Source: a virus
Taxonomy: Duplodnaviria; Caudoviricetes
Direction: 5' to 3' (one strand)
DNA: 51,294 nt
IMG/VR virus record: IMGVR_UViG_3300035670_000302
Location: 1 to 51,294 of that record
Each line of letters starts with the position of its first letter. The stretch's first letter is position 1. A model generated the notes under the pieces. It was not told the DNA's origin. It saw only the letters and a program-made list of their open reading frames with translations, and ran no database searches. The position numbers and the translations under genes were made by a program. Positions 1 to 28,800 of the stretch are shown piece by piece.

Positions 1-38
1 ATCAGGTACCCCTGCCGGTCTACGGCCTAGTACCAAAG

Positions 39-66
39 AGTATACACACGGTCAAGATATTTGCAA
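39..66 (-). promoter_or_regulatory. Candidate sigma70-type promoter pointing off the left edge (towards the portal if the genome is circular)
   Basis: Minus strand TTGCAA (66-61), N16, TATACT (44-39), just downstream of the terminase terminator. Confidence 0.35.
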
Positions 67-111
67 AAGCAAATAGAAACACCCCTGAACTAACGGCTTA
101 GAGCAGGGGTG
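66..111 (-). terminator. Rho-independent terminator after the large terminase
   Basis: CACCCCTG/CAGGGGTG outer stem and CTAA/TTAG inner stem (80-111), followed on the minus strand by TTTCTATTTGCTTTT. Confidence 0.65.
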
Positions 112-166
112 CCGACGAGATACACTGTGGAGGTGTAGCGCCGTCAAGTATACTGGATGTTGACTA

Positions 167-2434
167 CTATGTCCAACCTGCGGCGTGGACCCGCTTCACT
201 TCACGCTTGGCGGCAGTCACCGCCCCAACTGGGCTATCCACATGCAACATTAGGTACTGGAGTGCCTCGGCGACGTGCGAGTGCTTGTTCTTGTCGATCA
301 CGTTGTCCTGCTTCTGCTTGTAGCGATAACCCCCCATCATCGCGGCCTTGAGCCGCGTACACCGGGGGTCCACGACGAACGCCGGGTCGCCATCGACCTG
401 CCTCATAAGGTACTCGTCAACCGCGTTCACACGCGCAGAGATATTATTAGTCTTGGCAGGGATGACCCTGAGATTCTCAGCCTTGATGATGTCCACGGCA
501 CTGCGCTCGTCCGTCTGCGCCCTCTGCACCCCCGCCGGGTCGACCACGACGAGTATGGGAGACCCCGCGAACCGCTCATATAGTAGTGGCTTCAACTCCG
601 TCCGGATGAACCGCTGTATGCCCATGTCAAACGAGACCCTCTCGTCCAGTATCAGCACCCGCCCACGGGCGTCCTGCTGACCAATAATTGCCGCAGGTGT
701 CAACCCGAGGTCCATCCCCACGATGATGGGCCGAGCGCCGTTGGCGATGGGTCGTAGCGGGCCGGAGGCCATGTGGTAGTCCGGCCGGAAGTACTTGTAC
801 ACCGGCGTCCCCGCCAGCGACAGGCCGTACTCACCATCTATATAGACGCGGATGTACTCGTCACTGCGCCCTTGGATGTCGTAGTACCCCTCGGGCAGGT
901 TCTCTATGTTCTCGGCGTAGGCACTGCGCCCCGAGGGCTGTTTGTACACCGCCCACCCGTTGTTGTTAGGCGAGACGCCATCCTTGGGATCAAGCCCCTC
1001 CATTTGGAAGTACCACCAAGTGTCCATCGTGGGCGGGTTAGTGTCACCCCACATGCCAAACCACGTCGGCCCGCCATCCTTCGACGACGGATAACGACCA
1101 ATACGTTTTGACATGGCATCCACGATGTCCGGGTGGATGTCCCTGCACTCGTTGAACCACGCACCGGTCAACTCCAGCGAGTTGAGGTTAGCCACATCGT
1201 CCGCGTCGTCCAGTGCGCGGAACATAATCTCAGCCTCGACATCCCCGACCTTGAAGAAATAAGTCTTCGTCGTCCGCATGTACTCGCCACACTGCCCCGG
1301 CGGGAACCAATCCAGAAATGTCTTTATGGTGGTGTCCTGTAACTGGCGCACGGTCTCTCTGACCACCGCCCACCGCGACTTACGCACCCCTCGCGGGTTA
1401 GGGTTCTGCATACTCGCCCGACGAATCAACTCAAAACAACAAGTCACGCTCTTACCACTGTTGTGGTGGATAGTCCCGTCGGCAGTCACATAGTTGTTGG
1501 TATCGAGGACCTGCAAATCCCAATACGACCGCTTGCGCGCCTCCCGCTCAATTGATACTATGGGCCTGTCGGATACGGAGGTTAAGTAGAATGACTCATC
1601 ATAAATCTCAGAACACTCAGCGGATCGTGGCGCTTGCGGATGGCACTCTGTCCTCCACGCAGATCGCGCAGTCCGTTGGGCTGTCCCCTCGCTATGTGCG
1701 GAAAGTAATGCTCCGGCTGGACTTGCCCCGGCTAACAGAGGGTGCGCAACCGGGGAAACAAAACCACCAATACCAGTCAGGACGCCGGATAGACCAAGAC
1801 GGGTATGTGCTTGTAACCGCTCCCAAAGACCACCCGTACGCAAGACTTCGGACGCACCGGGATACCAAGTTGATGTTTGAGCATCGACTTGTTCTTGAAC
1901 AAACTCTAGGTCGATACCTTCTTCCTGAAGAAGTTGTAGACCATATCGACGGGCTGACGCTGCATAACGCGCCAGAGAACCTCCGGCTGTTCGCCTCGAA
2001 CGCCGATCATCTTTCTGCGACAAAAGCAGGCTGTGGGCCAAGGTTGTCAGCGGCTGGGAGCCGGAATACTGGGATACGGACTGACCTTGGGAAAGAGATC
2101 GAACGTGTCGATATGCACGCGACCCGTCGTAAACGAGGTGATGTTCGTTTGCGGCAAATTCTCCTTGCGGCGTTGTCACTCGGTATAGATAGTCCGTACC
2201 TTTCGGGAAGCTCCCCCCACACCAAGAAAGCTGGAATCGACATGACGTCTCGTTCCACGATAGAACGCGCATTGGCCGATCTATACGCGCGATGGGAAGC
2301 AGGCCATACTCAGTAACCACGAGGGTTTCGGGCGCTAAGCACCCTACAGGCCCCATGAGAACCCGCATTTTGCGGTTGTCCTGCATGAATTTCGCCCCTG
2401 TCGGGGGCGGCGTGTAGTCAATTGACAGCGACAT
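167..2434 (-). CDS. terL: Terminase large subunit, intein-containing (755-aa precursor, about 461 aa after splicing)
   Basis: Walker A GPVG|SGKS split by an insertion, Walker B GAWFNE, coupling motif DTNPP, RNaseH-like nuclease VGMDLG...VDPAG...SHVAEALQY; lies downstream of the small terminase. Confidence 0.95.
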   Translation of the reverse strand: MSLSIDYTPPPTGAKFMQDNRKMRVLMGPVGCLAPETLVVTEYGLLPIARIDRPMRVLSWNETSCRFQLSWCGGSFPKGTDYLYRVTTPQGEFAANEHHLVYDGSRAYRHVRSLSQGQSVSQYSGSQPLTTLAHSLLLSQKDDRRSRRTAGGSLARYAASARRYGLQLLQEEGIDLEFVQEQVDAQTSTWYPGASEVLRTGGLWERLQAHTRLGLSGVLTGIGGFVSPVAHPLLAGASPAGALLSAHSEGTAQRTARSAWRTECHPQAPRSAECSEIYDESFYLTSVSDRPIVSIEREARKRSYWDLQVLDTNNYVTADGTIHHNSGKSVTCCFELIRRASMQNPNPRGVRKSRWAVVRETVRQLQDTTIKTFLDWFPPGQCGEYMRTTKTYFFKVGDVEAEIMFRALDDADDVANLNSLELTGAWFNECRDIHPDIVDAMSKRIGRYPSSKDGGPTWFGMWGDTNPPTMDTWWYFQMEGLDPKDGVSPNNNGWAVYKQPSGRSAYAENIENLPEGYYDIQGRSDEYIRVYIDGEYGLSLAGTPVYKYFRPDYHMASGPLRPIANGARPIIVGMDLGLTPAAIIGQQDARGRVLILDERVSFDMGIQRFIRTELKPLLYERFAGSPILVVVDPAGVQRAQTDERSAVDIIKAENLRVIPAKTNNISARVNAVDEYLMRQVDGDPAFVVDPRCTRLKAAMMGGYRYKQKQDNVIDKNKHSHVAEALQYLMLHVDSPVGAVTAAKREVKRVHAAGWT
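1533..1581 (+). promoter_or_regulatory. Candidate promoter and Shine-Dalgarno for the antisense HNH gene
   Basis: TTGCGC (1533-38), N17, TACTAT (1556-61) preceded by TGn (extended -10); GGAGG at 1577-81, 9 nt before ATG 1591. Confidence 0.6.
1591..2316 (+). CDS. HNH homing endonuclease with N-terminal HTH, encoded antisense inside the intein
   Basis: HTH-like SSTQIAQSVGLSPRYVRKVM, then DGYVLV...HPYA...EHRLVLEQTLGRYLLPEEVVDHIDGLTLHNAPENLRLF (phage HNH_3-type motif); good SD before ATG 1591. Confidence 0.88.
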   Translation: MTHHKSQNTQRIVALADGTLSSTQIAQSVGLSPRYVRKVMLRLDLPRLTEGAQPGKQNHQYQSGRRIDQDGYVLVTAPKDHPYARLRTHRDTKLMFEHRLVLEQTLGRYLLPEEVVDHIDGLTLHNAPENLRLFASNADHLSATKAGCGPRLSAAGSRNTGIRTDLGKEIERVDMHATRRKRGDVRLRQILLAALSLGIDSPYLSGSSPHTKKAGIDMTSRSTIERALADLYARWEAGHTQ

Positions 2435-2639
2435 GGGCAGGCACCAGCGGTTCCAGCAACATAACCACGAACTTACGCCCCGAGCGCTTGGTTTTGACGA
2501 TCTTCGTCCTGAAAGAGACGTTGTTTCGCTTCAGAGCGAGGGTGAAATTGTGGTATTCCGCTGAATTATGTAGCTCAGCCGTGGGTAAACCCTCAAAAAC
2601 TGTCGAGAATTTACTCATCAACGCCATCGGAATAGCCAT
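2418..2639 (-). CDS. Hypothetical protein between the terminase subunits
   Basis: 73 aa, SD GAGGTG, overlaps both neighbours in the operon. Confidence 0.7.
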   Translation of the reverse strand: MAIPMALMSKFSTVFEGLPTAELHNSAEYHNFTLALKRNNVSFRTKIVKTKRSGRKFVVMLLEPLVPAHVAVN

Positions 2640-3099
2640 CTGACACCTCTTCGGGGGTATTTTCGTGTTCTATCACCGTCGCTTCGTGGGATTGACCACC
2701 AAGATTGATCGTAATTCGTACACCACCGGCCAATCCAGAGGCATCTACGTCGTTTTTTGGCTCCAACCCACCCCATTTGACCGTCGATTTGATGAGGTCA
2801 GCCTTCACAGCGGGGCTTACAGACGGGTCGTGGATCAATAACCACGATGTTGTCAGGAGTTCTTCGGCTTGGGCGCGGGCTTTGAGACGGAAGGTGACAC
2901 CTTTATCCCTGACTTCTCCACGGTAATGCTCCACTTTCTTCAGAAAGGAAGCGTCCTGCTTGAAAACCAGCAAGTCCGTGACGGAAATGTTGTTCCTCGC
3001 TATGACTTCGTTGACCGTTTCTCCACTGCCCTCAAGAAGTAGGGCAACGTCGAATGCCAAGCGATCTGACCAGCGAGGGCGGGGTGCCATGTAAGTCAT
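2611..3099 (-). CDS. terS: Probable terminase small subunit
   Basis: 162 aa, helical, C-terminal VRITINLG beta-strand, positioned upstream of terL. Confidence 0.65.
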   Translation of the reverse strand: MTYMAPRPRWSDRLAFDVALLLEGSGETVNEVIARNNISVTDLLVFKQDASFLKKVEHYRGEVRDKGVTFRLKARAQAEELLTTSWLLIHDPSVSPAVKADLIKSTVKWGGLEPKNDVDASGLAGGVRITINLGGQSHEATVIEHENTPEEVSDGYSDGVDE

Positions 3100-3134
3100 A
3101 GGGGGAGTGTAGACAATGGGGCGGGTGTTGTCTA
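3100..3134 (-). promoter_or_regulatory. Promoter for the terminase operon overlapped by an inverted repeat
   Basis: TAGACA (3134-29), N17, TACACT (3111-06), 6 nt from ATG 3099; TAGACAA-N11-TTGTCTA dyad at 3110-3134. Confidence 0.6.
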
Positions 3135-3359
3135 GTGGGACTATGGTGCCAGTTTAGTGTGTAGGGGCGGGGATTTTTTGGGGGGCGCGACAAATTGGGT
3201 CTCGGTTGGGGGTGGGTGTAACTTTACACGTTGGTTTTTTGGGTGGTGTCGTGTGTGACTTACCATCATACGGGGGGAGGGGGCACAGCCAGTCCGACTG
3301 CCCCCCTGCAAGCCTAGTGGGGGGATGCTGGCGCAAGCGTTTCAGCCTATAAAACAAGC

Positions 3360-3418
3360 GAAAAAGATGAAAACAGCGTCGAATTAAACTTGACACGGAT
3401 GTCAGGTTATGGGAATCT
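3360..3418 (+). promoter_or_regulatory. Early promoter candidate
   Basis: A-rich UP-like tract, TTGACA (3390-95), N17, GAATCT preceded by TGn. Confidence 0.5.
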
Positions 3419-3498
3419 AAGGGTGTCGGCGATCACACCTGAATCGCCACGCAAACGAAGGACTACCTTCGGCGCGGATGGGACGACCATACGCAAAG

Positions 3499-3509
3499 GC
3501 TCTTTAACA
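3499..3509 (+). promoter_or_regulatory. boxA antitermination element
   Basis: GCTCTTTAACA matches the rrn/lambdoid boxA consensus (T)GCTCTTTAACA and lies in an untranslated leader after a promoter. Confidence 0.65.
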
Positions 3510-3595
3510 GTTCGGACAACAGGCGCGTCTGCATCCAGTGTAAGCGTGTGGACGTGACCTGAAACCTGCAATCCACAATGTAGAAGGACAGTGTT

Positions 3596-3922
3596 ATGTC
3601 ACGCGTATTCAACGGTAGCGTTTCGATCACCACTAAAGTCACCAAGGCAGGAGTCAAGGTTCTCACCTTGAAGCCTGACCAGAATGGCAAGTGGAACAGC
3701 GACAACGTCGGAGAGTGCCTCAAGAAAGTGATGGAGTTGCACAAGTCGGAGGGGTTGCCCCTCGATGAGTGGATGTTGTTTAGCCCGAAGCTCGCCAAGG
3801 GCGAAAAGGCATCGCCGGTACTCCTCGCTCGCAAGCGCTTCGGCACCCCGTATATCGCGCTGCTCGCAGCGCAGAAAACGGCGGTAGCCGCTAAGGTCGA
3901 GACCAAGCCACAAGTGTGGTGA
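3596..3922 (+). CDS. Hypothetical basic early protein
   Basis: 108 aa, SD AAGGA, first gene after the boxA leader. Confidence 0.8.
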   Translation: MSRVFNGSVSITTKVTKAGVKVLTLKPDQNGKWNSDNVGECLKKVMELHKSEGLPLDEWMLFSPKLAKGEKASPVLLARKRFGTPYIALLAAQKTAVAAKVETKPQVW

Positions 3923-3930
3923 CACAAACC

Positions 3931-3955
3931 GGCCCCAAGGATGGGGCCACCTTTT
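3931..3955 (+). terminator. Possible weak terminator or stabilising hairpin
   Basis: GGCCCCA-AGGA-TGGGGCC followed by ACCTTTT. Confidence 0.35.
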
Positions 3956-3966
3956 AGGAGAATGAA

Positions 3967-4062
3967 ATGAAGATGGCAAGCTGGAAAAATGAAAAGGTCT
4001 CACGCTGGCACGACTTCTGCTTCTGGGCAGTCGTCATACTGATCTGCGTCAAGTGGGACTGA
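3967..4062 (+). CDS. Small hydrophobic peptide (31 aa, not in ORF track)
   Basis: AGGAG SD 6 nt upstream; MKMASWKNEKVSRWHDFCFWAVVILICVKWD. Confidence 0.6.
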   Translation: MKMASWKNEKVSRWHDFCFWAVVILICVKWD

Positions 4063-4110
4063 TCGAATGGGGTGGCGCAAGCCGCCCCAACCTTAATGAA
4101 GGAGATTGAT

Positions 4111-4347
4111 ATGAGTCTGTTAACAGATCAAGGGCAGTCCCTTGTGGACGCCCACGGCGGCTACGTCGCCGCTATCACGGCCCTGCGTCAGCAGGGCTAC
4201 ACCGTGGCTGATGGTCTCGCCGTAGATGGTGGTGTGCGCCTAGCGAAACGTGGCGGTGGTTACCAAACCGCTGTCCACTGCACCAACGACGTAATCGCGC
4301 TGGTGCGGGGTTGCCCCGCCAGCCACGCAGTCGTGGCATATAAGTGA
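4111..4347 (+). CDS. Hypothetical protein
   Basis: AAGGAG SD before ATG 4111; ends just before a terminator. Confidence 0.75.
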   Translation: MSLLTDQGQSLVDAHGGYVAAITALRQQGYTVADGLAVDGGVRLAKRGGGYQTAVHCTNDVIALVRGCPASHAVVAYK

Positions 4348-4352
4348 CCAAA

Positions 4353-4378
4353 GCCCCGCCGAAAGGCGGGGTTTTTTT
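4353..4378 (+). terminator. Rho-independent terminator
   Basis: GCCCCGCC-GAAA-GGCGGGG followed by 7 T. Confidence 0.9.
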
Positions 4379-4384
4379 GTGCCT

Positions 4385-5200
4385 GAAACTTGACAACTTT
4401 ACACGTCAGGGCTGGCCGATCTAGGCCTGTAACTTGACAACTTGACACGGGGTTAGCTATCTAGCAGGTGAACCCTTCACCCATACGTCGGGGGGATGTA
4501 GGGCGCTACTTTACACAGGTACAGTACAGTAGGTACCGAACACCGAGTATGTAGTATATACTTGACATGTCAAGTTGTCAAGTTAGCGTGTATAGTTATG
4601 ATAACTTGACACGTCATGTCAAGTTAGACGTGTAAAGTTATGGTGTAAAGTTAGCATAACTTGACACGTAGTGTCAAGTTAGACGTGTAAAGTTAATAAC
4701 TTGACGTGTAAAGTTACCTACAACTATCTACGATTTTGGCCAACTATCTACAAATCTAGGCGAAAAACAGCCCCAAAAGCCATGGGTGCTAACTTTACAA
4801 CTTGACATGACCAAAGCCTTGATCCACAAGGATTTTCTTTCTTACTATACATATTTACTATCTAAACTATCTAAAGTATCTATGATTTTTTCCTACCCTT
4901 TCGCGTAGGAAATTTTTTTTTAAGCCGCTACAACTCTAGGACGATCGTATCATTTTCCAACAGATAGATACCTAAACCACCTACCTCTTCCGTAACCCCT
5001 TGATTTTACTACACTTAGCCTTCCCAAAATGTAAAGTTATCCCCAAACTATACACGCCAAAATCTAGATAGCACAGATAGTTCCGCGCCCTCCCTTCTCG
5101 CTAAGTCCTTGTTTTCTGGATATATTCTGTTCCAGCCGTGTAAAGTTACTCCCCTTTACCTAGTCCCTATTCCCCCCTAACCCCCCAAAACTTGACACGG
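4385..5200. repeat. Non-coding array of about 25 direct and inverted 9-mers (AACTTGACA/AACTTTACA/AACTATACA) plus ACTATCTA repeats; candidate origin or packaging/terminus region
   Basis: Counted by eye; includes a 40-bp direct repeat at 4601-4640 and 4656-4695 (2 mismatches), the palindrome CTTGACATGTCAAG, and an AT-rich stretch at about 4830-4925. Confidence 0.85.
4993..5005. promoter_or_regulatory. IHF-like binding site (near matches also at 4812-4824 and 5102-5114)
   Basis: TAACCCCTTGATT matches YAANNNNTTGATW, the reverse complement of the IHF consensus WATCAANNNNTTR. Confidence 0.5.
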
Positions 5201-5221
5201 CGGCCGGCCCCGTGCCATGCT
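5192..5221 (+). promoter_or_regulatory. Promoter candidate for the main early operon
   Basis: TTGACA (5192-97), N18, CATGCT preceded by TGn; shares AAACTTGACACGG with the 3390 promoter. Confidence 0.5.
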
Positions 5222-5277
5222 GATGGGGTCGAGGCAGTTCGCCCCGACATTCATGAAAATTTTGAGGTAACGACCTT

Positions 5278-5529
5278 ATGAACAAACATATTAAACAATA
5301 CAAAGCCCGTAGCGGTGTAATGATGTTCAAACCTAGTGTCCAACTGATCCAACAGATGGATGACGACATGCAAGGCTTCTGCCTTGCATGTGGAAACGTT
5401 AACGACTCTGTAGAACCCGATGCCCAACGGTATGAGTGTGAGTGCTGTGGTGAAGAGAAAGTATACGGCGCTTCCGAACTCGCCCTGATGGGTCTCTGCT
5501 TCGACGCTGAGGTAACGACCAATGCGTAA
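5278..5529 (+). CDS. Zn-ribbon protein
   Basis: CLAC...CECC pairs; motif-linked SD. Confidence 0.8.
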   Translation: MNKHIKQYKARSGVMMFKPSVQLIQQMDDDMQGFCLACGNVNDSVEPDAQRYECECCGEEKVYGASELALMGLCFDAEVTTNA

Positions 5530-5752
5530 GCATAACTTTACGATTGAAGTAACTGACACCTATGGTGGTGAGGCCAACTACGCTTGGGTCAAGAGACTCA
5601 AGGTGGTGGCCACCACAGCAAGAGGCGCTGTCCGGATGGTATCCAAAGATACCGGCTTCAAGTTCCGTCTGTCTTGGTTCGACGGCGAGACTTGGCGCTA
5701 CGATGCCAAGAACGCTTGTATCTGCCTTTTCATCAACCACGAAACCTTCTGA
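5522..5752 (+). CDS. Hypothetical early protein
   Basis: Motif-linked SD, tight operon packing. Confidence 0.8.
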   Translation: MRKHNFTIEVTDTYGGEANYAWVKRLKVVATTARGAVRMVSKDTGFKFRLSWFDGETWRYDAKNACICLFINHETF

Positions 5753-5763
5753 GGTAACGACCC

Positions 5764-6018
5764 ATGGATAAACAACAGCACCTAGACTACCTCTGTGAGG
5801 CCGCAGAATGGTCTCTCAGAAGCGGAGTAGATGTAACCGTATCACCCCACGGTAGTGTCGAGATCGTCGTCCACAGGACGACTGTGGCCCTGTTGGAAGG
5901 ACATCAGGCCGATGCCTTCCTCGACGAAGCCAAGTTCCTGTGGGAGGAACTGGAAGAAATCGCCCTTGACTGGGTGTATCTAGCCCTTGCAAAACCCTAT
6001 GTGGAGAACTCCATATGA
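5764..6018 (+). CDS. Hypothetical acidic early protein
   Basis: Motif-linked SD. Confidence 0.8.
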   Translation: MDKQQHLDYLCEAAEWSLRSGVDVTVSPHGSVEIVVHRTTVALLEGHQADAFLDEAKFLWEELEEIALDWVYLALAKPYVENSI

Positions 6019-20039: not shown

Positions 20040-22877
20040 ATGGACACGCTGAGTTTTCTTCAGCGGGTTCTTCCAACTGACGGGCTGTACTGCGCCATGT
20101 TCCTGCAAGACGGGGCGGCGCGGCATGGTTTCTTCGGCTCTGTGGAGGGGCTTGCAGAGGCGTCGACTAAACTCGACGCACTAGGATTGAATGTTTATTA
20201 CGCGGTCTCGACCTTCAATGGGAAGAGACGCAAGCAGGACAACGTCTGCCAAACCAAGGTCATCGCCGTCGATCTCGACGTGGGTGAGGGGGAGAAGAAG
20301 TACCCCACATGGCAGGCGGCGCTGAAAGATTTAGGTCGGTTCATCACACAGGTGGGACTTCCCAAACCTGTGGTAATTCATTCTGGCGTGGGACTGCACG
20401 TCTACTGGGTACTCAGCGAAGCGCTGGTGCCCGCGCAGTGGCAACCTCTGGCAAGCGCCATGAAAGCCTGTGCCCTTGGTAATGGCCTGCGGATTGACCC
20501 GTCAGTGACAGCAGACAGTGCCCGTGTTCTACGGGCTATCGGGACGACAAACCGCAAGAATGACCAGCAAGTACGCTTACTGATCGACGCCCCTGACGTG
20601 GACGTTGACGACCTGACAAGTTGTTTTGGTACGAACGCCCCTGTCTCAGTACGCCCTGCACCACAGCGGTCGTCTGGACTGGCTGACTCACTGGCGGTCA
20701 AGTACGAGTTCCCACCGGCCAACGCCGAGACCGTGGTCAGCAAGTGCGCTCAGTTACGGTGGGCAGTCGAGAACCAGAAAGATGTTCCTGAACCATTCTG
20801 GTATTCCATCATGGGTATCGCGGCGTTCTGCCATGACCCAGAGGCGACAGCCCTGCGGTGGAGCAGTGACCACGAAGACTTCGACCCCAACTCCACACTC
20901 CGCAAGATGTACCAGTGGCAGAAGGCGGCGACAGGGCCGACAACCTGTAGCCGACTGGAGGCAGAGCGACCAGCAGGGTGTAAGGGTTGCCCTTACAAGG
21001 GCAAGATTGGTTCCCCCACCCGCCTCGGTGCCCAGTTCGACGAGGTAGCCGCGCCGACCAACGCCCCTGACCAGACGGCACTGGCAGTCCCAGTACCCAA
21101 GCCGTTCAAGCGGACGGCGTCTGGTATGAAGTTGACGATTGATGATACGGACATAGACATTTGTCCGTTTGATATATACCCAGTATCCTACGGTCGTGAT
21201 GACTCGCTGTCCTATGAGGTGGCACGGTTCAGTTGGAACCGCCCACACATAGGCTGGCAACCGCTGGTACTAAGACACGCATATCTTGCAGACGGACACC
21301 GTGAATTCTCGTCGGCCATCGCTGACCAAGGGATAGTCCTCTACAACAAGAAGCAGACGGAGTACTTTCAACTCATGCTCAGGTCATACCTAGAGTCCCT
21401 GAAACAGACGCGCACGATGACCAACCTCTACGCCACGATGGGCTGGAAGGAGAAGTTCTCGGAGTTCGTCATAGGTAACACCATCATCCGGCGTACTGAC
21501 ACGGGTGTGGTTGAGGACAGTATCAATCTGTCGTCCGGCTCACAGAAGCTAGGCAACGAACTCTGGACGCAGAGCGGGACGCTTGAAGACTGGGTGGCGT
21601 TCACCAACCTGCTCCAGAAGGCACAGATGCCGTGGCATATGTTCGCCCTTGCCGTGGGTATCTCCGCTCCGCTGTACGCCTTCACCGGTCTCAAGGGTAT
21701 GACCCTCTCGCTCTACGGCCCGACCGGCGGCGGCAAGACGCTCGTCCAGTACTGGCAACAGTCCGTATGGGGTAGCCCCGAGAAGCTACACTTCACCGCC
21801 AAGTTCACACAGAACGCTTTGTTCTCACGCCTTGGTCTGTACAGCCACCTGCCCATGACCATCGACGAAGCCACGATGGTGGACGACAAGGACGTGGGTG
21901 ACTTCCTGTACTGGGTTACGCAGGGCCGAGACAAGGCACGACTGACCCGTATGTCAGAGGAACGGGATGCAAGGACGTGGGCAACGCCCAACACTATCTC
22001 CACAAACAAATCATGGAATAGCAAGCTGACTGCCTCCGGCTTGGAGACTGACGCACAGATGGCCCGCTTGCTGGAGATCAACGTCCCACAGCACCCGCTG
22101 TTCATGAAGAACTCCAACGCCGGTCGGCGCATATACGAATTCCTGTCCACCAACCACGGGACGATGGGTCGAGCGTTCATCCACAAGTTGATCGCCCTTG
22201 GCGAGGATGGCATCCGTGCCATGATCGCAGAACACACAGAGAAGTTTCCACGCCTCTACAACTGCAAGTTCTCAGGGCAGGAGCGGTACTGGGAGCAGAT
22301 GGTCATACTCGCCGACCTTGCCGGTAAGCTGTGCCAAGAGTGGGGACTGATCGACTTTGAGTACACACTGGGTACCAACTGGGTACTGGAACAAATGGGT
22401 GCCATCCGTAAGAACTTGGCCGAGAACCGGATGGACATATTCGATCTGCTCACCGAGTACATGAACACCTACGCCAACACCGCCGTCACCGTCATGCACA
22501 CGGTCGGCCAGAAGCCCGTCCTAGACTACGCTCGTCTCCCCCGTGGCGACATCCGCATCCGCTTCGACATCTACCGTCCTGCCGCTACACAGCGGTTCGA
22601 CAGGGGTACAATGCTGATCGACCGCACCCACTTCCGGAAGTGGCTGTCTCTCCGTGGCGCAGACTATAAGACGTTTATGAATGAGGTAGAGGCTGAGCGG
22701 GTGGATGCCACACCCAAGTCTGGCAAGGCGTCCCTCGCCAAGGATACCCCAGTGAAGCTAGGCCAGTCGTATGTCTTCGGTCTGAACCTTAGCCATAAGC
22801 GACTGGCGGGTATCCTTGATGAGGTGGATCAGGCCGCTGACGACCTGATGTATGGCCAACTCAAGGCTGTGAAGTAG
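20040..22877 (+). CDS. Primase-helicase (RepB/AEP-like primase, Cys cluster, DUF927-like helicase)
   Basis: DLD, SGVGLHVYW, D.ARVLR, C...C..CPY, Walker A GPTGGGKT, TIDE; start reassigned to ATG 20040 (GGGAG SD). Confidence 0.88.
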   Translation: MDTLSFLQRVLPTDGLYCAMFLQDGAARHGFFGSVEGLAEASTKLDALGLNVYYAVSTFNGKRRKQDNVCQTKVIAVDLDVGEGEKKYPTWQAALKDLGRFITQVGLPKPVVIHSGVGLHVYWVLSEALVPAQWQPLASAMKACALGNGLRIDPSVTADSARVLRAIGTTNRKNDQQVRLLIDAPDVDVDDLTSCFGTNAPVSVRPAPQRSSGLADSLAVKYEFPPANAETVVSKCAQLRWAVENQKDVPEPFWYSIMGIAAFCHDPEATALRWSSDHEDFDPNSTLRKMYQWQKAATGPTTCSRLEAERPAGCKGCPYKGKIGSPTRLGAQFDEVAAPTNAPDQTALAVPVPKPFKRTASGMKLTIDDTDIDICPFDIYPVSYGRDDSLSYEVARFSWNRPHIGWQPLVLRHAYLADGHREFSSAIADQGIVLYNKKQTEYFQLMLRSYLESLKQTRTMTNLYATMGWKEKFSEFVIGNTIIRRTDTGVVEDSINLSSGSQKLGNELWTQSGTLEDWVAFTNLLQKAQMPWHMFALAVGISAPLYAFTGLKGMTLSLYGPTGGGKTLVQYWQQSVWGSPEKLHFTAKFTQNALFSRLGLYSHLPMTIDEATMVDDKDVGDFLYWVTQGRDKARLTRMSEERDARTWATPNTISTNKSWNSKLTASGLETDAQMARLLEINVPQHPLFMKNSNAGRRIYEFLSTNHGTMGRAFIHKLIALGEDGIRAMIAEHTEKFPRLYNCKFSGQERYWEQMVILADLAGKLCQEWGLIDFEYTLGTNWVLEQMGAIRKNLAENRMDIFDLLTEYMNTYANTAVTVMHTVGQKPVLDYARLPRGDIRIRFDIYRPAATQRFDRGTMLIDRTHFRKWLSLRGADYKTFMNEVEAERVDATPKSGKASLAKDTPVKLGQSYVFGLNLSHKRLAGILDEVDQAADDLMYGQLKAVK

Positions 22878-25800
22878 GGTAGCTCAACAACGTATCCAGT
22901 TCCTCAATCGTCGCTTGGGCGGCTTTACCCACCGCCCTGAGCGACCGCTCCTTCGCTGGACGCTCCGCTTCCTTCAGTGCCCGTCTGGCATTGGCGACAA
23001 AGTCCCGAATCTCCAGCCCCGTCCCCTTCGCCCCTACGTTCCACTCCCTCACCGCCTCTTCGACTCGCCGCGCCTGCTCTGGGTCTTTACCGATCATGGC
23101 CTTCACCCATGCCCGCTTGTATGAACCACTAACTTCTCTCTGGTAGTCAGTGACACGGTTGGTCAGTTTGATCGTCTCGTAGGCTTCAGACGGTGCCGCC
23201 GGATAGAACCCACCCATCCGCGCCAGTACCGTCATCATGGTCACATCAGGCGTTACAACGTAGCCCTTCTTGTCGATGACTGCACCAGTCTGCGCGTAGA
23301 CGTATGCATCCCCCATGGCCCGCATCATCGTGACAGGTGACTCACGGAACACATCCGCAATGGATGTCTTCTCAGTTGTCGCCGCACTCAGGGCCGCACC
23401 CATGGAGGTCGCCGCTCCGATCATGGCTGACGCCGCAGGGCCGAGTATTTCCTTAACTTGTTGTCCTACGTCTGCACCTGCCAGCAGTATCTCCGTGCCC
23501 GGAATGAAGTCCCCCGTTGATACCCTTGACGCAATATCTACCGCCGACAGCGAGTTGAATACTCCTTTCAAGAGATACGGCGATACACCGGGAGCGATGC
23601 TGTCCAGCAACTTCGCCAGTTCAAACCGGACGCTACCCATGGACAGGCCGAGCTTCTGCGCGATGGTGTCGAGCAAGTCCTCAAAGTCTTCAGCGAACGG
23701 CATACCTGCCAGACCGGAGAGTAGCCACATACCCGCCAGCATTTGTATCTGCCCCGTTCGGGACAGGCGAGCGAGCGTCTGGATCGTGGTCGTCGGGTAC
23801 ACCTTGTACATATACAGGAACGATTGCAGACCACTACGCCATGCGGGAGGTCTGTTGATGACCGAGTACTCACCCATCGTGTAGCGGATGGCATCGACCG
23901 CAGACTTCCGAGCTTGCTCTATCGCCTGTGCTTCGCTCATCTTGGAGGCAATCGCACGGTTGTAGGCCAGACGGAAGGTCGCCAGTCCCAGTGACCGGCG
24001 AGCGGCTTGTTCTGTGGAGTTGAACGTCCACATCCACGCATCCATTAACTTCTGTCCAGCACCTGACGTGATACGCCCACGGGCTGTGTTCGCCAGTGCG
24101 TTGGACTGTGCGGGGATCATCACACCCTCACGGATTTCCTGCGCTATGAACTTGGCTTCAGCCTCGGTCAGTCCGTACTGCTTCTGCAAACGGTTGTCAC
24201 CCGCGATCCGGTCGTAGAACAGGGAAGTATTGAACTCCGAGTTACCGATGGCACGGGCGAGACCTACTTCACCTGACGCCTTGGAGAACGCGGCGACTGC
24301 GTTACCGTAGCCGAAGCCCTCACCGAAAGCTGTCTTCTCGTTGTAGGTAGCGAGGTAAGGGAAGCTGTTGGTGAACAGACCGATGTAGTTCAGTGCGCCA
24401 GTAGCCAGCGATCCACCGAGTTGCATCATGCTGGTGTACGCACGGATGGAGGACACGACTTTACCCGCACCGAAGTCAGACTCGTCGAGGCTCTTGTTGC
24501 TATCCAAGAACGTCAGCAAACGCGAGGCTTCGCTGTAGTACATATTGTCACGGCTTGCCCGCCCTTCAGGCTTGGTCTTGTCCACCATGTACTTGTACTC
24601 ATAGTACGCCCGCTTGGCCGCAGTCACCTGCTCCGGCGTGGCATCCGGCGTCTTACTCAGCCTGTCCCACTGGTCTTTGAGATACTTGAGCTTGGGGACC
24701 CCATCGACTTTCTCTTCGGCCTTCCATATGTCCATCGTGGACGGCAGGCTACGATCCATCAGTGCGTTGAGTTGCGGCCGCATTGCCACCTTGGCGATTG
24801 TAGAGGCACGGCTGTCGATGTGCTGTGACACAGCGGCAACGCCGTCCATGTCAGCACCGGGGACAAACGAGCGTTGCAGTCTCTTACGCGCCTTGTTGTC
24901 CTGCTTGGTCAACGCGACAATAACCTGCTCCATCTTGTTAGGCGTCAGCACGATACTGAACCGACGCAGTCCATGGATGAACTCGTTGAGGTTGAGAGCA
25001 GGCGGCGCGGCAACGCTGTTCAGCACCGCTCCGGATTCTGCACGGAGTATTACGTCCTGTAGCTCATAGCTTCCAGTGTTCTCATTGAACACCTCGATCT
25101 TATACGTCCGTACCTTGCCATCCTCTGCAAACAGTTGGTTGTTTATCAGGTTGGCCGCTTCAAGCGCGTCAGATTCCGTCTCATGTTGGGTGTAGCTGAG
25201 TTGGTCTTTGTACTCAGACTTCAGCCGCACTGGGTTACCTTCTTTGTCGTAGGCAACCACACGCACTTGGTAATCGCCCTTACGGAGCAATGGCAGATAG
25301 CCAGTAGCCAGCGTGGTCTTGGTGTACTTATCGCCCCCAAGGTTACTCAGTTCTGCCATGAGAACTTCTTTCAGTTTGTTCTGGACGAGGAACTTACGAT
25401 CCTCCGTCTTGGCAAACCGTTGCTTGAACTCCGTCAGTGAAGCGATGAGGTCGTCATACTGCTTGTCGAACGCAGTACCAGCCAGTACATCCTTGAGTTC
25501 TGCGTTCTTATCGGACTCGTTGGCGATGAGCAATTCATTCATCTTGGCGATGAACTCGTTGGCTTTGGTCATCGACTCTTCGCTATACGACTCATCCCCG
25601 TCCTTGTCCTTGATAGGGTTGGATGTCCATATCGTCTTATAGGTGTTGTACACCTTCTCCAAGAAGGCGTTGTCTGCGCCGGTCAGAGTGCCGTCGCGCA
25701 TGGCCTTGGCGATACTGCGATAGGCGTTCTTACTTTCCTGTATGAATGACGTGTACCGCGCCTGAAGAAGTTTCAGTTCGACATCTGCCATCGACTCACG

Positions 25801-28800
25801 GGTGGCTTCGTAGCCCTTCCAAATCGGGCTGTCCTTGGTAAGCCCCGGCACACCGTCGACATTGATCTTCTCCGTAACCTCGTTACCTTCTTTCAGGTAG
25901 GTCACGTTGTAAGAGAACCCATCACGCATCTGCTCAAACTTCAGCATACCAAGGTCGGTCAGCCGCTTGGCCTCGTCCATGTTTGGTTTGACTTGCCCCT
26001 CGTCGTCCACATAGAACAACGGCGTCTTACCCATGGCGCTCGACTTGTACTTACTGATGGCATACCGCTGGCCCTCGTAGAGCATACGGTTGACTTGGTT
26101 CAGTTCTTCCTCGGTAATACCGCCAAGGAAAGGTAACCGCTCAAAAGACCGATTAAGCACGACAGCCATGCGCTCGTTCATCAATACCTTGATGGACATT
26201 GCCATGTCACGACCGGCAGACAGTACGTCATGCAGGGCGCTGAGACCGGGGTTCTCACGGGTACGGAAGTTCAGGAGGCTAAAGAACTTCTCTTTGAACT
26301 TCTCAAAGCTGTTGCCGAAGTCCATGCCGGTAGCTTTAGCCCGCTGTAAATACTCAGCCAACTGGCTATAGTTCATCCCCTGTGCATCGCTGGTGTAGTT
26401 TGCCATCAGCGCGGCTTGCAGGTTGTCGTCCCGCAGGTTGGGCTTGCCAGAGTAACGACCCAGTTCGATGGTGTCTTCACCAGATTCCACGGACATCATC
26501 CGCAGGGCTACCGCAGAGTTGACGAACGTGTTGCCCGTCTTCCCTTCGTAAACATATCTGCGTGACTGACTGATCAGATACCGTGCCATGTCGTCTGAGA
26601 ACTTCACGCCGAGTTTGTTGAGGGCGTTCTTGATCGCCGCCCATACACGCGCCAACAAGTTATTGTTCAACGTACCGGCGAAGTCAGCGAGGTATTCCTC
26701 AACGGCTTCTGACTTGCTCATATCGGAGCTTGCCATTGCCGCATCGACAGCGTTGCGGATACCACCGCTGGACTCATAGACCTCGTTCATCAACGCGTCG
26801 AAGTCGCGGCCTGCCATCAGGCTACGCATACCGAAGTGGCCGATGGTCTCATGGGCCATGACGAAGTTCAGGTGGTCAGCAGAGAAGATGTTGTTGGAGA
26901 AGATGATGATGTTCTTCCCAAACGAATACCCTGATGCCAGCGTGTTGTCGAAGTCGCCCTCAACCCGCGCCGCCTTGGCTCGCCGATAGAGTTCGGGGTT
27001 CTGTACCTTGAGGTCGTTGATGTCGGCATAGACGTAGACCGTCGGCTTCATCTTCAACTTGGATACAAACTGGTTCACCAGCATCTTCACCCGACCGATA
27101 CCGATAGGCGTGGCATCGGTGTTGTCAGAGACGCGCTTATTTCTTCCTACACCCGTGTAACTGCTAGGTAAGTTTTTAGTCTTGGTAAGATTTAGCTGGT
27201 CAAGTATTCCAGCCTGCGCCGCCACTATGTACCACGGTGCCCTACCATTCTGTGCATCCAGTTTTGGGTTGGCGTTAAAGTTCGCTACCGCCGCCCGTAT
27301 CTGCTGTTCATAACTTACTGGCGCACTTACCTTTGGTTTTCTGTCCGGTGCAGTTTTCTTTTTCTCTTCTATACGTTCAGTTATTTTAAGCGCGTCACGG
27401 ATTTGGGTTTGCGTGGACTTCGCCTTCTCTTCCTCAAGGGTTTGCTTAACCAGTTCGTACCCAGAGACAGGCGTCGTAACCGGAGTGGTCTGTACTACAG
27501 GCTCACTTGAGTCGATTACGACTTCTGGCTTTTTTACGGCGGCAGTTTCCTTAGCCGTGGTAAGTTTCGTCTTACCGGCAGGTTTCGGTTTAGCCACAAA
27601 GCCCATGGCTCCAGCAGGAGCGGCAGGCGTAGGCGCGGGCTTAGGTGCCGGAGCGATCTCTACAGCAAGCGCTACGCTAGGATTCTCGTCATCAAAGACA
27701 GCCTTACGCCAACGCTCCTGCTGTTCTGGAGTGAGGGTATTCCACCTAACTTCGGAGAATTCTGCCCATCGTCTGCCTGCCAAGATTATCTGGCCGGCGC
27801 GTATCTGTGCGGCCACTCGGGGCGAAGTCTCGTCTTCGACTGCGGCTTTGGCCTCAGCTTTGGCCGCAGGTTTGAGTTTCGCCGCAGGCTTGGGCTTTGT
27901 CTCAACCTTGGGGGCAGGCTTAGGCTTCTTCAGCCCTTTGCCTTTCTCTGCTCCTTGCTCAGCGCCACGGCCACCGCTTGGCGCACCGCCTGCTTTTTGG
28001 CCTTCGGCCGGCTTGTTCCGATCTTCCCGCTTGACTGCCAGTCGTCCACGACCTTCTGTATCTTCGCGCTTACCCGCTTGTTCTTGGCTTTTGCCGCGTT
28101 TGAGTTTTGCACCTTTAGCTCCCGTGGGTACTGGTTGTGGGGTAGGGATCACCGCCGGCGCAACAGGGCCGGCTACATTTGGAAGGTTCTCTGCAAGCTG
28201 GAGTTCAACTTGGTTGAGTGCCGCTTGGTAATCAGCATCGCGCTGTGCCTGTCGTGCGGCTTCTTCTGCCGCCGCCCGTGCCGCTTCCTGTTCAGCGAAC
28301 AGAGGCGCGTTACGACCACGGGCAATAAGTTGCTCAAGCCCTCTACGCATTTGCGTGGGTTCCCCACGCCCCCAAGACTCAGGAGCGGCAGGGGCAAACT
28401 GGAGTGCACCCTGCTGTGGATTACGCACCGGCTCTACGGGTGGCGCACCCATGGGTATCGCTGTGCTTGGCATCATACGGGCGGCGAGTTCTTCCGCAGT
28501 GACAGGCTGTCCACCGAAGATGTCCAGAAGCCCCTGAGAACCGGCCTGTGCGCCGGGAGGTACGTTACCCTGCACCCCAAACAGAACGTCGCCTGCTTCG
28601 GCAGGACGCATCCCCTGTGGGCCAGCGACGAAGTCAGGAGTACCCAGTAACTGTAGTGGTGCCACAGGAGCGGCTGGTGCCGCCGGAGCCGGCAGTGCAG
28701 GCTGACCGAAGTTGAACTCCACCCCAGTAATATCTGGACCTTCTGGTTGCCCAGTGTAAGGAGCCAGCCCACCGCCCATCTGTAATCCGGCAACAGGCAC

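What the first reader, a model, noticed from the sequence alone, without database searches (positions are those of the whole stretch)
1460..2341. Intein whose homing endonuclease is a separate gene on the antisense strand
Seen: a canonical intein (Cys1, block B His, terminal HN/S) splits the terminase Walker A, but its central roughly 170 aa show no LAGLIDADG or HNH motif and read like a shadow frame. The opposite strand carries a 241-aa HTH+HNH ORF (1591-2316) entirely within the intein. Both frames stay stop-free over 726 nt, in an offset register (codon position 3 of one pairs with position 2 of the other), which is not the in-register antisense frame that usually produces spurious shadow ORFs. 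Established: intein endonucleases are normally in-frame domains released by splicing. Inference: this is a two-strand mobile element in which the sense strand supplies splicing and the antisense strand supplies homing, decoupling nuclease expression from late terminase expression. I do not know it as a described architecture but cannot verify novelty.
Basis: partly seen in the sequence, partly recalled or inferred. Interest (0 to 1): 0.93.

Follow-up and report, generated by a model that had tools for sequence, protein, structure and literature searches.

The report
Terminase intein with antisense HNH nuclease

Summary
Minus-strand ORF 167-2434 is a terminase large subunit. A 294-aa class-1 intein (1460-2341) splits its Walker A motif (GPVG|C...HHN|SGKS). 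Plus-strand ORF 1591-2316 is a full-length HTH + HNH_3 endonuclease (PHROG 10730, E 1e-53).

- Both frames are open, in one register, in all 84 related records examined (69 distinct sequences).
- Synonymous resampling of the HNH gene leaves the sense frame open in only 0.045% of trials.
- Codon-position diversity shows which frame is selected. In the exteins and intein ends it is the sense frame. In the 155-codon loop it is the HNH frame. In 86 codons of the N-terminal splicing domain both are constrained.
- The element is mobile. 75 of the 80 closest terminase alleles lack it precisely. Intein presence needs at least 5 changes on the extein tree. A near-isogenic intein-free allele shows a roughly 45-nt co-conversion tract.
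- A sigma70-like promoter, Shine-Dalgarno site and ATG for the HNH lie inside the C-terminal splicing-domain coding region.

Antisense nucleases in inteins are already in print for LAGLIDADG and VSR-like enzymes. My searches found none for HNH, so I rate this a new variant of a known kind. Splicing, cleavage and transcription are untested.

The parts
167..2434 (-). Terminase large subunit precursor ORF (755 aa, stop codon included), read through the intein
   Evidence: phrog_2 E 1.2e-21; no stop in the sense frame
2342..2434 (-). N-extein (31 aa), ending in MGPVG, the first half of Walker A
   Evidence: intein-free alleles read MGPVG|SGKSV
1460..2341 (-). Class-1 intein, 294 aa (Cys1 ... His293-Asn294, +1 Ser)
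   Evidence: 75 of 80 close alleles lack exactly this segment
2057..2341 (-). N-terminal Hint half (intein aa 1-95, blocks A and B, invariant H68). Residues 9-95 are also read on the other strand as the HNH C-terminal module
   Evidence: AF2 pLDDT 91-97; diversity at the three codon positions 0.26/0.30/0.35, so both frames are constrained
1592..2056 (-). Sense-frame loop (intein aa 96-250) at the usual endonuclease insertion point. It is kept stop-free but is not selected as protein
   Evidence: pLDDT below 50 for aa 153-250; diversity is highest at sense position 2 (0.35/0.62/0.28); no Pfam domain
1460..1591 (-). C-terminal Hint half (intein aa 251-294, blocks F and G: WDxQV...NYVTxDGxxHHN)
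   Evidence: pLDDT 80-96; invariant D275, H292, H293, N294; diversity 0.33/0.22/0.53
170..1459 (-). C-extein (430 aa), starting SGKS, the second half of Walker A
1415..1459 (-). Putative co-conversion tract or altered target: the first ~45 nt of the C-extein
   Evidence: 58% identity to the intein-free sister allele L118 here, against 93% at nt 46-90, 95% at nt 91-200, 97% at nt 201-600 and on the N side, and 300 of 300 identical at nt 91-390 upstream of the junction
1591..2316 (+). HTH-HNH endonuclease gene (241 aa plus stop), lying wholly inside the intein on the opposite strand
   Evidence: HNH_3 in 22 of 23 aligned relatives
1609..1716 (+). Winged-HTH region of the nuclease (aa 7-42)
   Evidence: weak Pfam HTH hits; helices with pLDDT ~85; Foldseek wHTH matches, weak
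1783..2025 (+). HNH (beta-beta-alpha-metal) core, aa 65-145. Invariant: H98, R99, D117, H118, D120, G121, H125, N126, N130, N137, H140
2113..2307 (+). C-terminal helical module of the nuclease (aa 175-239), encoded opposite the N-terminal Hint half. It is specific to the window's clade
   Evidence: pLDDT 75-89. Only the top ~42 of 150 listed representatives cover profile positions beyond ~185; the others stop at ~165
1533..1561 (+). Candidate sigma70-type promoter of the HNH gene: TTGCGC, 17 nt, TACTAT, with TG at 1553-1554
   Evidence: read; family consensus TTGACA-17-TACAAT; score of 9 or more in 42 of 54 relatives against 19 of 641 control windows
1577..1581 (+). Shine-Dalgarno GGAGG, 9 nt before the ATG at 1591
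   Evidence: a core of 4 or more bases in 45 of 54 evaluable relatives; start codon ATG in 51 and GTG in 3

Best explanation
This is a mobile class-1 intein in the Walker A (P-loop) codons of a podovirus-like phage's terminase large subunit. Its homing endonuclease is not an in-frame domain. It is a separate 241-aa wHTH-HNH_3 protein encoded on the opposite strand.

Shown by sequence comparison:
- The sense frame is kept stop-free, so the terminase is made as one 755-aa precursor.
- Its two Hint halves (aa 1-95 and 251-294) form a complete mini-intein fold around a ~155-aa loop that is not selected as protein.
- The loop is the coding sequence of the HNH gene read backwards, and selection there acts on the HNH frame.
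- The last ~85 codons of the HNH gene overlap the N-terminal splicing domain, and there both frames are constrained.
- The element is present or absent among near-identical terminase alleles, with a flanking tract of replaced sequence.

Inferred:
- Host RNA polymerase transcribes the HNH gene from a sigma70-like promoter embedded in the C-terminal splicing-domain codons. This would be independent of the late, opposite-strand terminase transcript.
- In a mixed infection the HNH nicks or cuts an intein-free terminase allele within a few tens of bases on the C-extein side of the insertion point.
- Recombinational repair copies the intein, the nuclease gene and ~45 nt of flank into the recipient.
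- Protein splicing then restores an intact Walker A, so the insertion costs the phage little.
For: 1. Real proteins on both strands.
- HNH: HNH_3 at 28.7 bits (cut-off 24.8); phrog_10730 at E 9.7e-54 over nearly the full profile; HNH_3 in 22 of 23 relatives; catalytic-type residues invariant.
- Intein: the AF2 model has pLDDT above 90 for aa 1-95 and 251-294. Foldseek hits mini-inteins, including NpuDnaB 4o1r (E 4.8e-7, TM-target 0.84) and Mtu RecA 3ifj (TM-target 0.85).

2. Both frames open.
- Window plus 36 loci found through the HNH.
- 80 of 80 loci found independently through the intein profile, these being the best 80 of 134 relatives.
- 3 of 3 MAG contigs.
- 69 distinct intein sequences among 84 records, always in the same register.
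- Chance of an open sense frame given the HNH protein: 0.00045.
- Phe followed by I/M/T/N/K, which would force a sense-frame stop, occurs 0 times against 46 expected.

3. Frame-specific selection, 68 sequences, diversity at sense positions 1/2/3.
- C-extein: 0.47/0.37/0.66.
- Hint-C: 0.33/0.22/0.53.
- Loop: 0.35/0.62/0.28 (position 3 minus position 2 = -0.34, CI -0.38 to -0.30).
- Hint-N overlap: 0.26/0.30/0.35.

4. Mobility.
- 75 of the 80 closest C-extein relatives (81-96% aa identity) read MGPVG|SGKSV with no insert.
- Six intein-bearing rows need at least 5 changes on the extein tree. The window's sister, with support 100, is the intein-free L118.
- Window against L118: 300 of 300 identical at nt 91-390 upstream of the junction; 58% in the first 45 nt of the C-extein, then 93-97%.
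- HNH identity and extein identity disagree. L079 is 69% and 45%; L081 is 61% and 87%. Ymer, PHS3 and L100 have terminases that barely align.

5. Expression signals.
- ATG or GTG start in 54 of 54 evaluable relatives, and a Shine-Dalgarno core in 45 of 54.
- A promoter-like site in 42 of 54 against 19 of 641 controls, with low third-position diversity at the -35 codons.

6. Not needed for packaging. Five complete intein-free relatives (55-58 kb) have no match to the HNH profile.
Against: - No experiment or transcript supports splicing, cleavage or antisense transcription.
- The promoter call rests on my own consensus scoring. The tool's stricter scan did not list it in the window, where the -35 hexamer matches only 3 of 6. 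Part of its conservation is forced by the sense-frame residues (Ile/Val codons).
- Sense residues 98-150 of the loop are predicted helical at pLDDT 65-85. Some role for that part of the sense polypeptide is therefore not excluded, although codon-position diversity there favours the HNH frame.
- Foldseek on the whole HNH model gave only weak wHTH matches and no His-Me finger hit. The profile search against solved structures also found no nuclease.
- The block B Thr is not conserved (N/S/A/G/T at residue 65).
- The co-conversion reading rests mainly on one very close pair. Other pairs show the same trend but are more diverged.
- Loci are metagenome assemblies, and many are related by descent, so counts are not independent events.
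Confidence: 0.85

Rival explanations
1. Fractured gene. The terminase is made as two polypeptides that carry split-intein halves and are joined by trans-splicing, with a free-standing nuclease gene lying between them, as in the loci of Dassa et al. 2009.
For: GenBank annotators of phage PHS3 split the gene into a 391-aa 'terminase large subunit' plus a separate HNH gene. Fractured terminase loci with split inteins exist (PMC2677866, passages read).
Against: The sense frame has no stop in any of 84 records or 3 MAG loci, although about 6.5 stops are expected by chance. In PHS3 the 708-aa frame is open through the HNH region. Stop-forcing dipeptides are absent from the HNH protein, 0 against 46 expected. 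This shows selection to keep read-through.
Confidence: 0.03
2. The plus-strand ORF is a shadow frame, or a decaying relic of an inverted nuclease domain, and is not expressed. On this view the intein is a vertically inherited mini-intein with a long loop.
For: No RNA or protein evidence was obtainable. Long antisense frames do occur in GC-rich genes: in this antisense register the longest open run in an unrelated gene of the window is 169 codons.
Against: Strong family matches. The highest diversity falls at HNH third positions across 68 sequences. Catalytic residues are invariant down to 44% identity. Start codon, Shine-Dalgarno site and promoter-like site are conserved. The distribution is sporadic and there is a co-conversion footprint.
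Confidence: 0.02
3. The HNH is expressed and active but its main role is not intein homing. It could be a terminase-associated packaging nuclease, or a weapon against co-infecting relatives or host DNA.
For: HNH genes next to terminase genes that assist packaging are common in phages (abstract of PMC3592412 as listed; the packaging role is otherwise recalled). Cutting a rival's intein-free terminase gene would also exclude that rival.
Against: Five complete intein-free relatives lack any homologue, and 75 of 80 close alleles lack it, so packaging does not need it. It is always found inside an intein at the same P-loop site: 58 of 92 more distant loci show the xHN|[S/T/C]GK[S/T] junction and another 22 are nested in a long antisense ORF. 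The flanking replaced tract fits repair-mediated copying.
Confidence: 0.07

Closest known systems
Inteins with an antisense LAGLIDADG homing endonuclease (Synechocystis DnaX, Chloroflexus SpoVR-like; credited to Gorbalenya 1998 and Gogarten 2002 in bioRxiv 10.1101/2025.01.02.630785; actinophage examples in that preprint; dnaX re-analysis in bioRxiv 10.64898/2026.09.14.751524)
   Same: A continuous intein ORF whose centre has no fold of its own; the nuclease read from another frame of the same DNA; frame-dependent selection; sporadic distribution.
   Different: The nuclease here is a wHTH-HNH_3 (His-Me finger), not LAGLIDADG. The hosts are terminases of environmental, Pectobacterium and Pseudoalteromonas phages. 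[quoted passage not shown] The original 1998 paper was not held.
Actinophage inteins with antisense VSR-like or out-of-frame EndoVII-like nucleases (Gosselin, Arsenault, Gogarten, bioRxiv 10.1101/2025.01.02.630785)
   Same: Phage inteins, many of them in the terminase large subunit, with the nuclease on the antisense strand or in another frame. The proposed origin is invasion of a mini-intein by a free-standing nuclease gene.
   Different: That survey lists HNH only as an in-frame domain (passages of sections 3 and 8). The family here is antisense HNH, outside PhagesDB hosts.
[quoted passage not shown] 1997, as cited)
   Same: A Hint splicing domain combined with an HNH-type homing nuclease in one mobile element.
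   Different: There the nuclease is part of the intein polypeptide and is released by splicing. Here it is a separate protein with its own promoter-like site, Shine-Dalgarno site and start on the other strand.
Fractured genes: split inteins with a free-standing nuclease gene between the halves (Dassa et al. 2009, PMC2677866)
   Same: A free-standing-type nuclease gene sits at the usual endonuclease insertion point of an intein in phage genes, terminase included.
   Different: The host gene there is broken into two ORFs and trans-spliced, and the nucleases are GIY-YIG or VSR-like. Here the sense frame is continuous in every copy.
ShiLan-type hidden out-of-frame HNH insertions in phage methylase genes (Arsenault et al. 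2025, PMC11855218; abstract and one passage read)
   Same: An HNH homing nuclease hidden in an alternative frame of an insertion that stays stop-free in the host gene's frame.
   Different: That element has no splicing domain, and the HNH is described as out-of-frame (a GTG start 18 bp into the insertion). Here a complete Hint domain removes the insert, and the HNH is antisense.

Membership tests
Intein (class 1, Hint fold) | In-frame insertion at a conserved site of a host protein, with homologues that lack exactly the insert | tested here: met
   75 of the 80 closest alleles read MGPVG|SGKSV without the 294 codons
Intein (class 1, Hint fold) | N-terminal Cys/Ser nucleophile; block B His; block F Asp; terminal His-Asn; +1 Ser/Thr/Cys | tested here: met
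   C1, H68, D275, H293 and N294 are invariant in 23 sequences. The +1 residue is Ser or Thr in all junctions listed. The block B Thr position varies.
Intein (class 1, Hint fold) | Hint (horseshoe beta) fold assembled from the N- and C-terminal parts | tested here: met
   AF2 pLDDT above 90 for aa 1-95 and 251-294. Foldseek hits mini-inteins 4o1r, 3ifj and 1mi8 with TM-target 0.81-0.85.
Intein (class 1, Hint fold) | Protein splicing activity | not testable with these tools
   Needs an expression and splicing assay
HNH_3 / His-Me finger endonuclease | Profile match above the curated threshold, with conserved His, Asn and His/Asp metal-site residues | tested here: met
   HNH_3 at 28.7-28.8 bits against a cut-off of 24.8; found in 22 of 23 relatives; H98, D117, H118, N126, N130 and H140 invariant
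HNH_3 / His-Me finger endonuclease | Beta-beta-alpha-metal fold confirmed against solved structures | tested here: inconclusive
   The model has strands 73-77, 93-96 and 115-118 and helices 97-106 and 137-143 at pLDDT 81-92. Foldseek on the whole model returned only weak wHTH hits, and the PDB profile search found no nuclease.
HNH_3 / His-Me finger endonuclease | Site-specific nicking or cleavage of the intein-free allele | not testable with these tools
   Needs purified protein and target DNA
Non-canonical intein with the nuclease in another frame or strand | A continuous intein ORF plus a complete nuclease ORF on the antisense strand inside it, both conserved | tested here: met
   Both open in 84 of 84 records and 3 of 3 MAG loci; selection switches frame
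Non-canonical intein with the nuclease in another frame or strand | Signs of continuing mobility (sporadic distribution, conflict with the extein phylogeny) | tested here: met
   At least 5 changes for 6 intein-bearing rows on the extein tree; discordant identities; a replaced flanking tract
Fractured gene / split intein with a free-standing nuclease gene | Host gene broken into two ORFs (a stop after the N-intein half, a new start before the C-intein half) | tested here: not met
   0 sense-frame stops in every copy, against ~6.5 expected
Terminase-associated packaging HNH | Present as a required partner gene in related phages using the same terminase | tested here: not met
   0 of 5 complete intein-free relatives have a match to the HNH profile

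The most novel reading that the evidence does not exclude
P-loop (terminase) inteins with an antisense wHTH-HNH form one large, old and so far unannotated superfamily of phage mobile elements. All members share a single reading register, which points to one founding invasion of a mini-intein by a free-standing HNH gene. In the window's clade the nuclease then grew a ~70-85-aa C-terminal helical domain by overprinting the N-terminal splicing domain. On this reading 86 codons encode two functional, co-evolving protein parts on opposite strands. The element also carries its promoter and ribosome-binding site inside the other splicing half. That would make it a fully autonomous two-strand selfish gene, and a natural example of de novo domain birth under dual coding.
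Probability: 0.4. Interest if true: 0.8.

Novelty: new variant of a known kind. Interest (0 to 1): 0.62.

Why it matters
- **Evolution of inteins.** It supports the 'splicing domain first, nuclease invades later' view of intein evolution, and it adds the HNH family to the nucleases known to use the antisense strand of an intein.
- **Annotation.** It exposes a sizeable blind spot. Gene callers and curators label these terminases 'hypothetical protein' or split them (Ymer, PHS3). A few hundred copies sit in IMG/VR: the intein profile found 134 relatives and a more distant HNH found 229.
- **Dual coding.** The 86-codon segment in which a splicing domain and a nuclease module are both constrained on opposite strands is an unusually clean natural test case for how much sequence space two overlapping functional proteins can share.
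- **Tractable tests.** The near-isogenic intein-free allele with a short replaced tract gives a concrete, testable prediction of where the nuclease cuts. Cultured members exist, so splicing, transcription and homing can be tested directly.

Tried and rejected
- **Whole-model fold search of the HNH.** Only weak wHTH hits, nothing on the nuclease core or the C-terminal module.
- **ESM Atlas search with HNH residues 160-241.** No usable hit.
- **Profile searches against solved structures.** No nuclease for the HNH alignment; only a weak DnaB mini-intein hit for the intein alignment.
- **Megablast of window 1-6000 against GenBank phages.** No match.
- **Rfam on 1-4000.** No family reached its gathering score, so no self-splicing intron is detected there.
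- **The tool's sigma70 scan of 1-3700.** It listed no plus-strand site. The candidate promoter comes from my own family-wide scoring.
- **Expression.** No RNA holder listed. I laid X1, X5, X6 and X18. All are contigs, with no strand information and no joint that skips the intein. X18 is only guessed to be RNA. None of this bears on expression or on absence of the intein-free form.
- **Split intein, shadow ORF and packaging HNH readings.** Considered and rejected, as set out under rival explanations.
- **Ser+1 codon.** AGY occurs in 23 of 51 intein-bearing alleles against 10 of 75 intein-free alleles (Fisher p 1.4e-4). I keep this only as a hint, because it is not corrected for relatedness and the two sets differ in breadth.
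- **Literature.** None of the seven searches turned up a description of an antisense HNH in an intein. The library lacks most subscription journals. Gorbalenya 1998 was not held. Supplements were closed, and those of the 2025 preprint may list further nuclease types.


Full report
**What is there**

The window is a 93%-complete, 51.3-kb virus record. It has a family-A DNA polymerase, helicase, primase, an internal virion protein and a portal.

At its left end the minus strand carries a 755-aa ORF (167..2434). This ORF matches terminase large subunit (phrog_2, E 1.2e-21) and has a weak Pfam Intein_splicing hit at residues 287-325. The protein reads ...MGPVG|CLAPET...TIHHN|SGKSV... A 294-aa insert (window 1460-2341) therefore splits the Walker A motif GPVGSGKS.

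The plus strand carries an ORF at 1591..2316 (241 aa), wholly inside that insert.
- It matches Pfam HNH_3 above the curated cut-off (28.7 against 24.8 bits).
- It matches PHROG 10730 'HNH endonuclease' at E 9.7e-54 over almost the whole profile.
- It has weak winged-HTH hits at its N-terminus.

**More than chance**

I resampled the HNH gene's synonymous codons with the window's own codon usage.
- The sense frame stayed open in 0.045% of 20,000 trials. The mean was 6.5 stops and none is observed.
- In this antisense register, the longest open run in an unrelated gene of the window is 169 codons.

**Relatives**

- *GenBank phages.* A tblastn of the HNH against GenBank phages found 28 records, 9 of them covering at least 80% of the query. 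I opened three of those: Pectobacterium phages Ymer and Taid, and Pseudoalteromonas phage PHS3. All three have the same arrangement, although annotators called the terminase 'hypothetical protein' or split it.
- *IMG/VR through the HNH.* A scan with the HNH gave 33 loci at 54-78% identity. In the window and all 36 loci both frames are open; two contigs are cut by their ends.
- *IMG/VR through the intein.* An independent scan with the sense-frame intein profile found 134 relatives. In the best 80, 80 of 80 have no sense stop and an antisense open frame of 222-295 codons. 79 of 80 pass my simple HNH motif test. The exception, L096, has Gly in place of the Asp of the conserved Asp-His pair.
- *Prokaryote genomes.* Three MAG contigs are the only hits, and they show the same arrangement.
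- *Distinct sequences.* Together these give 69 distinct intein sequences among 84 records, all in one register.

**Which frame is selected where**

I built a codon alignment of 68 distinct sequences and measured nucleotide diversity at sense codon positions 1, 2 and 3 (a 30-sequence version agrees).

| Region | Pos 1 | Pos 2 | Pos 3 | Reading |
|---|---|---|---|---|
| N-extein | 0.49 | 0.35 | 0.66 | ordinary coding in the sense frame |
| Intein residues 1-8 | 0.39 | 0.19 | 0.69 | ordinary coding in the sense frame |
| C-terminal Hint half | 0.33 | 0.22 | 0.53 | ordinary coding in the sense frame |
| C-extein | 0.47 | 0.37 | 0.66 | ordinary coding in the sense frame |
| Loop, residues 96-250 | 0.35 | 0.62 | 0.28 | most variable site is the HNH third position |
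| Residues 10-95, N-terminal Hint half | 0.26 | 0.30 | 0.35 | all positions held down |

- In the loop the bootstrap CI of position 3 minus position 2 is -0.38 to -0.30, so the HNH frame is the one under selection there.
- Residues 10-95 lie opposite the last ~85 HNH codons, so both proteins are constrained there.
- The HNH protein itself is shaped by the overlap. Phe followed by I/M/T/N/K would force a sense-frame stop. It occurs 0 times against 46 expected. Ile before an A-starting codon is always ATA.

**Structures**

- *Intein.* With a 23-sequence alignment the intein model has pLDDT above 90 for residues 1-95 and 251-294, and below 50 for 153-250. Residues 98-150 are helical at 65-85. Foldseek matches mini-inteins: NpuDnaB 4o1r (E 4.8e-7, TM-target 0.84), Mtu RecA splicing domain (0.85) and Ssp DnaB. 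C1, H68, D275, H293 and N294 are invariant.
- *HNH.* The model (pLDDT 72.6) has an HTH at residues 7-42, a beta-beta-alpha core at 65-145 (81-92) and C-terminal helices at 175-239 (75-89). H98, D117, H118, N126, N130 and H140 are invariant. Structure searches did not independently confirm the nuclease fold.

**Mobility**

- Among the 80 IMG/VR loci whose C-extein is closest to the window's (81-96% aa identity), 75 have an uninterrupted MGPVG|SGKSV and 5 have the intein.
- On a tree of C-extein DNA with the junction-proximal 120 nt left out, the six intein-bearing rows need at least 5 changes. The window's sister, with support 100, is the intein-free L118.
- Against L118 the window is identical at 300 of 300 bases at nt 91-390 upstream of the junction and at 28 of the last 30 bases. 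It is only 58% identical over the first 45 nt of the C-extein, then 93-97%.
- That is the pattern expected if the intein arrived by break repair that also copied a short flanking tract. It suggests that the nuclease site lies on the C-extein side. Less close pairs show the same trend.
- Nuclease identity and extein identity are uncoupled. L079 is 69% and 45%; L081 is 61% and 87%. Ymer, PHS3 and L100 carry terminases that barely align with the window's.
- Five complete intein-free relatives have no homologue of the nuclease, so it is not a packaging component.

**Expression signals**

- In 54 evaluable distinct sequences (15 others failed my anchor pattern and were not scored), the HNH start is ATG in 51 and GTG in 3. 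A Shine-Dalgarno core of at least 4 bases lies 4-13 nt upstream in 45.
- Upstream of that, on the HNH strand and inside the codons of the C-terminal Hint half, the family consensus reads TTGACA, 17 nt, TACAAT. The -10 hexamer ends 26-29 nt before the ATG.
- My score reaches 9 or more in 42 of 54 sequences, against 19 of 641 control antisense windows.
- The two sense codons under the -35 hexamer have unusually low third-position diversity, 0.27 and 0.24.
- In the window the site is TTGCGC (1533-1538), 17 nt, TACTAT (1556-1561), with TG at 1553-1554, then GGAGG at 1577-1581 and the ATG at 1591 (read).
- This is in-silico evidence only. No RNA evidence could be obtained.

**A wider family**

- A profile search of 1.84 billion representatives found 6,824 proteins at E 1e-10 or better. 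Only the top ~42 of the 150 listed cover the C-terminal module. The rest match the HTH and HNH core only.
- I took two such shorter representatives back to IMG/VR and obtained 92 loci. 80 have an antisense frame open across the HNH. 58 show an xHN|[S/T/C]GK[S/T] junction. All 50 distinct ones are in the same register. 6 look free-standing, and in 6 my pattern found no HNH frame.
- So antisense HNH genes in P-loop inteins are widespread. The window's clade is the subset in which the nuclease has an extra C-terminal module laid over the N-terminal splicing domain.

**Comparison with what is known**

- Antisense nucleases in inteins are in print. LAGLIDADG examples are credited to Gorbalenya 1998 and Gogarten 2002. 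Antisense VSR-like and out-of-frame EndoVII-like nucleases in actinophage inteins are described in bioRxiv 10.1101/2025.01.02.630785 (abstract, section 15 and passages read). [quoted passage not shown]
- A 2026 preprint shows frame-dependent selection for the dnaX intein's out-of-frame LAGLIDADG (abstract and sections 14 and 17 read).
- A hidden out-of-frame HNH without any splicing domain is described in a phage methylase (PMC11855218; abstract and one passage read).
- Split-intein 'fractured genes' are the nearest alternative (PMC2677866; passages read). They are excluded here by the continuous sense frame.
- None of my seven searches found an antisense HNH intein. Supplements were closed and the 1998 paper was not held.

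**Verdict**

The observation and the two-strand reading stand. The kind is known.

Noticed in passing
L001 1631-3895 (Pectobacterium phage Ymer), L003 (Taid), L002 1691-3817 (Pseudoalteromonas phage PHS3): GenBank annotations miss the intein. The 754-aa Ymer and Taid terminases are labelled 'hypothetical protein' with no HNH gene called. PHS3 is annotated as a 391-aa terminase plus a separate HNH, although a 708-aa frame is open through it.
   Followed up: yes
L035 / L078 (same contig), HNH stop 20 nt beyond the intein N-terminus; also one locus at -47: In a few relatives the HNH ORF runs past the intein's first codon into the N-extein, so the nuclease gene overlaps host-protein codons as well. 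These alleles also have the Walker A variant S-T-K-T after the junction.
   Followed up: partly
L096 antisense ORF: One relative has Gly instead of the invariant Asp in the conserved Asp-His pair of the HNH core, while both frames stay open. It may be an inactive or altered nuclease.
   Followed up: no
window 1457-1459 (Ser+1 codon) and homologous codons: The Ser codon just after the intein is AGY in 23 of 51 intein-bearing alleles but in only 10 of 75 intein-free alleles. This is a possible target-immunity or co-conversion marker. It is not corrected for relatedness.
   Followed up: partly
window 3100-3400: A G-rich, strongly GC-skewed (up to +0.36) non-coding stretch lies between the divergent minus-strand (packaging and structural) and plus-strand (replication) gene blocks. 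It is followed at 4500-5100 by an AT-rich segment (GC 0.36-0.39). It could be a control or origin region.
   Followed up: no
window 22861-30369 (-): A 2,502-aa ORF whose only family match is to the C-terminal end of an uncharacterised 3,431-position PHROG (phrog_11358, E 4.6e-35).
   Followed up: no
window 1-3227 in runs X5 and X6: Contigs from two other studies carry this terminase with the intein (51 and 87 differences). Of the differences listed for X5, 39 lie outside 1395-2516 and none lies inside. 118 rows were not shown, so it remains open whether the intein is less diverged than its flanks.
   Followed up: partly
window intein residues 98-150 (about 1892-2050, minus strand): This part of the sense-frame loop is predicted helical at pLDDT 65-85, although codon-position diversity says the HNH frame is the selected one there. 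It may be an alignment echo of the other frame, or a real spacer helix.
   Followed up: no
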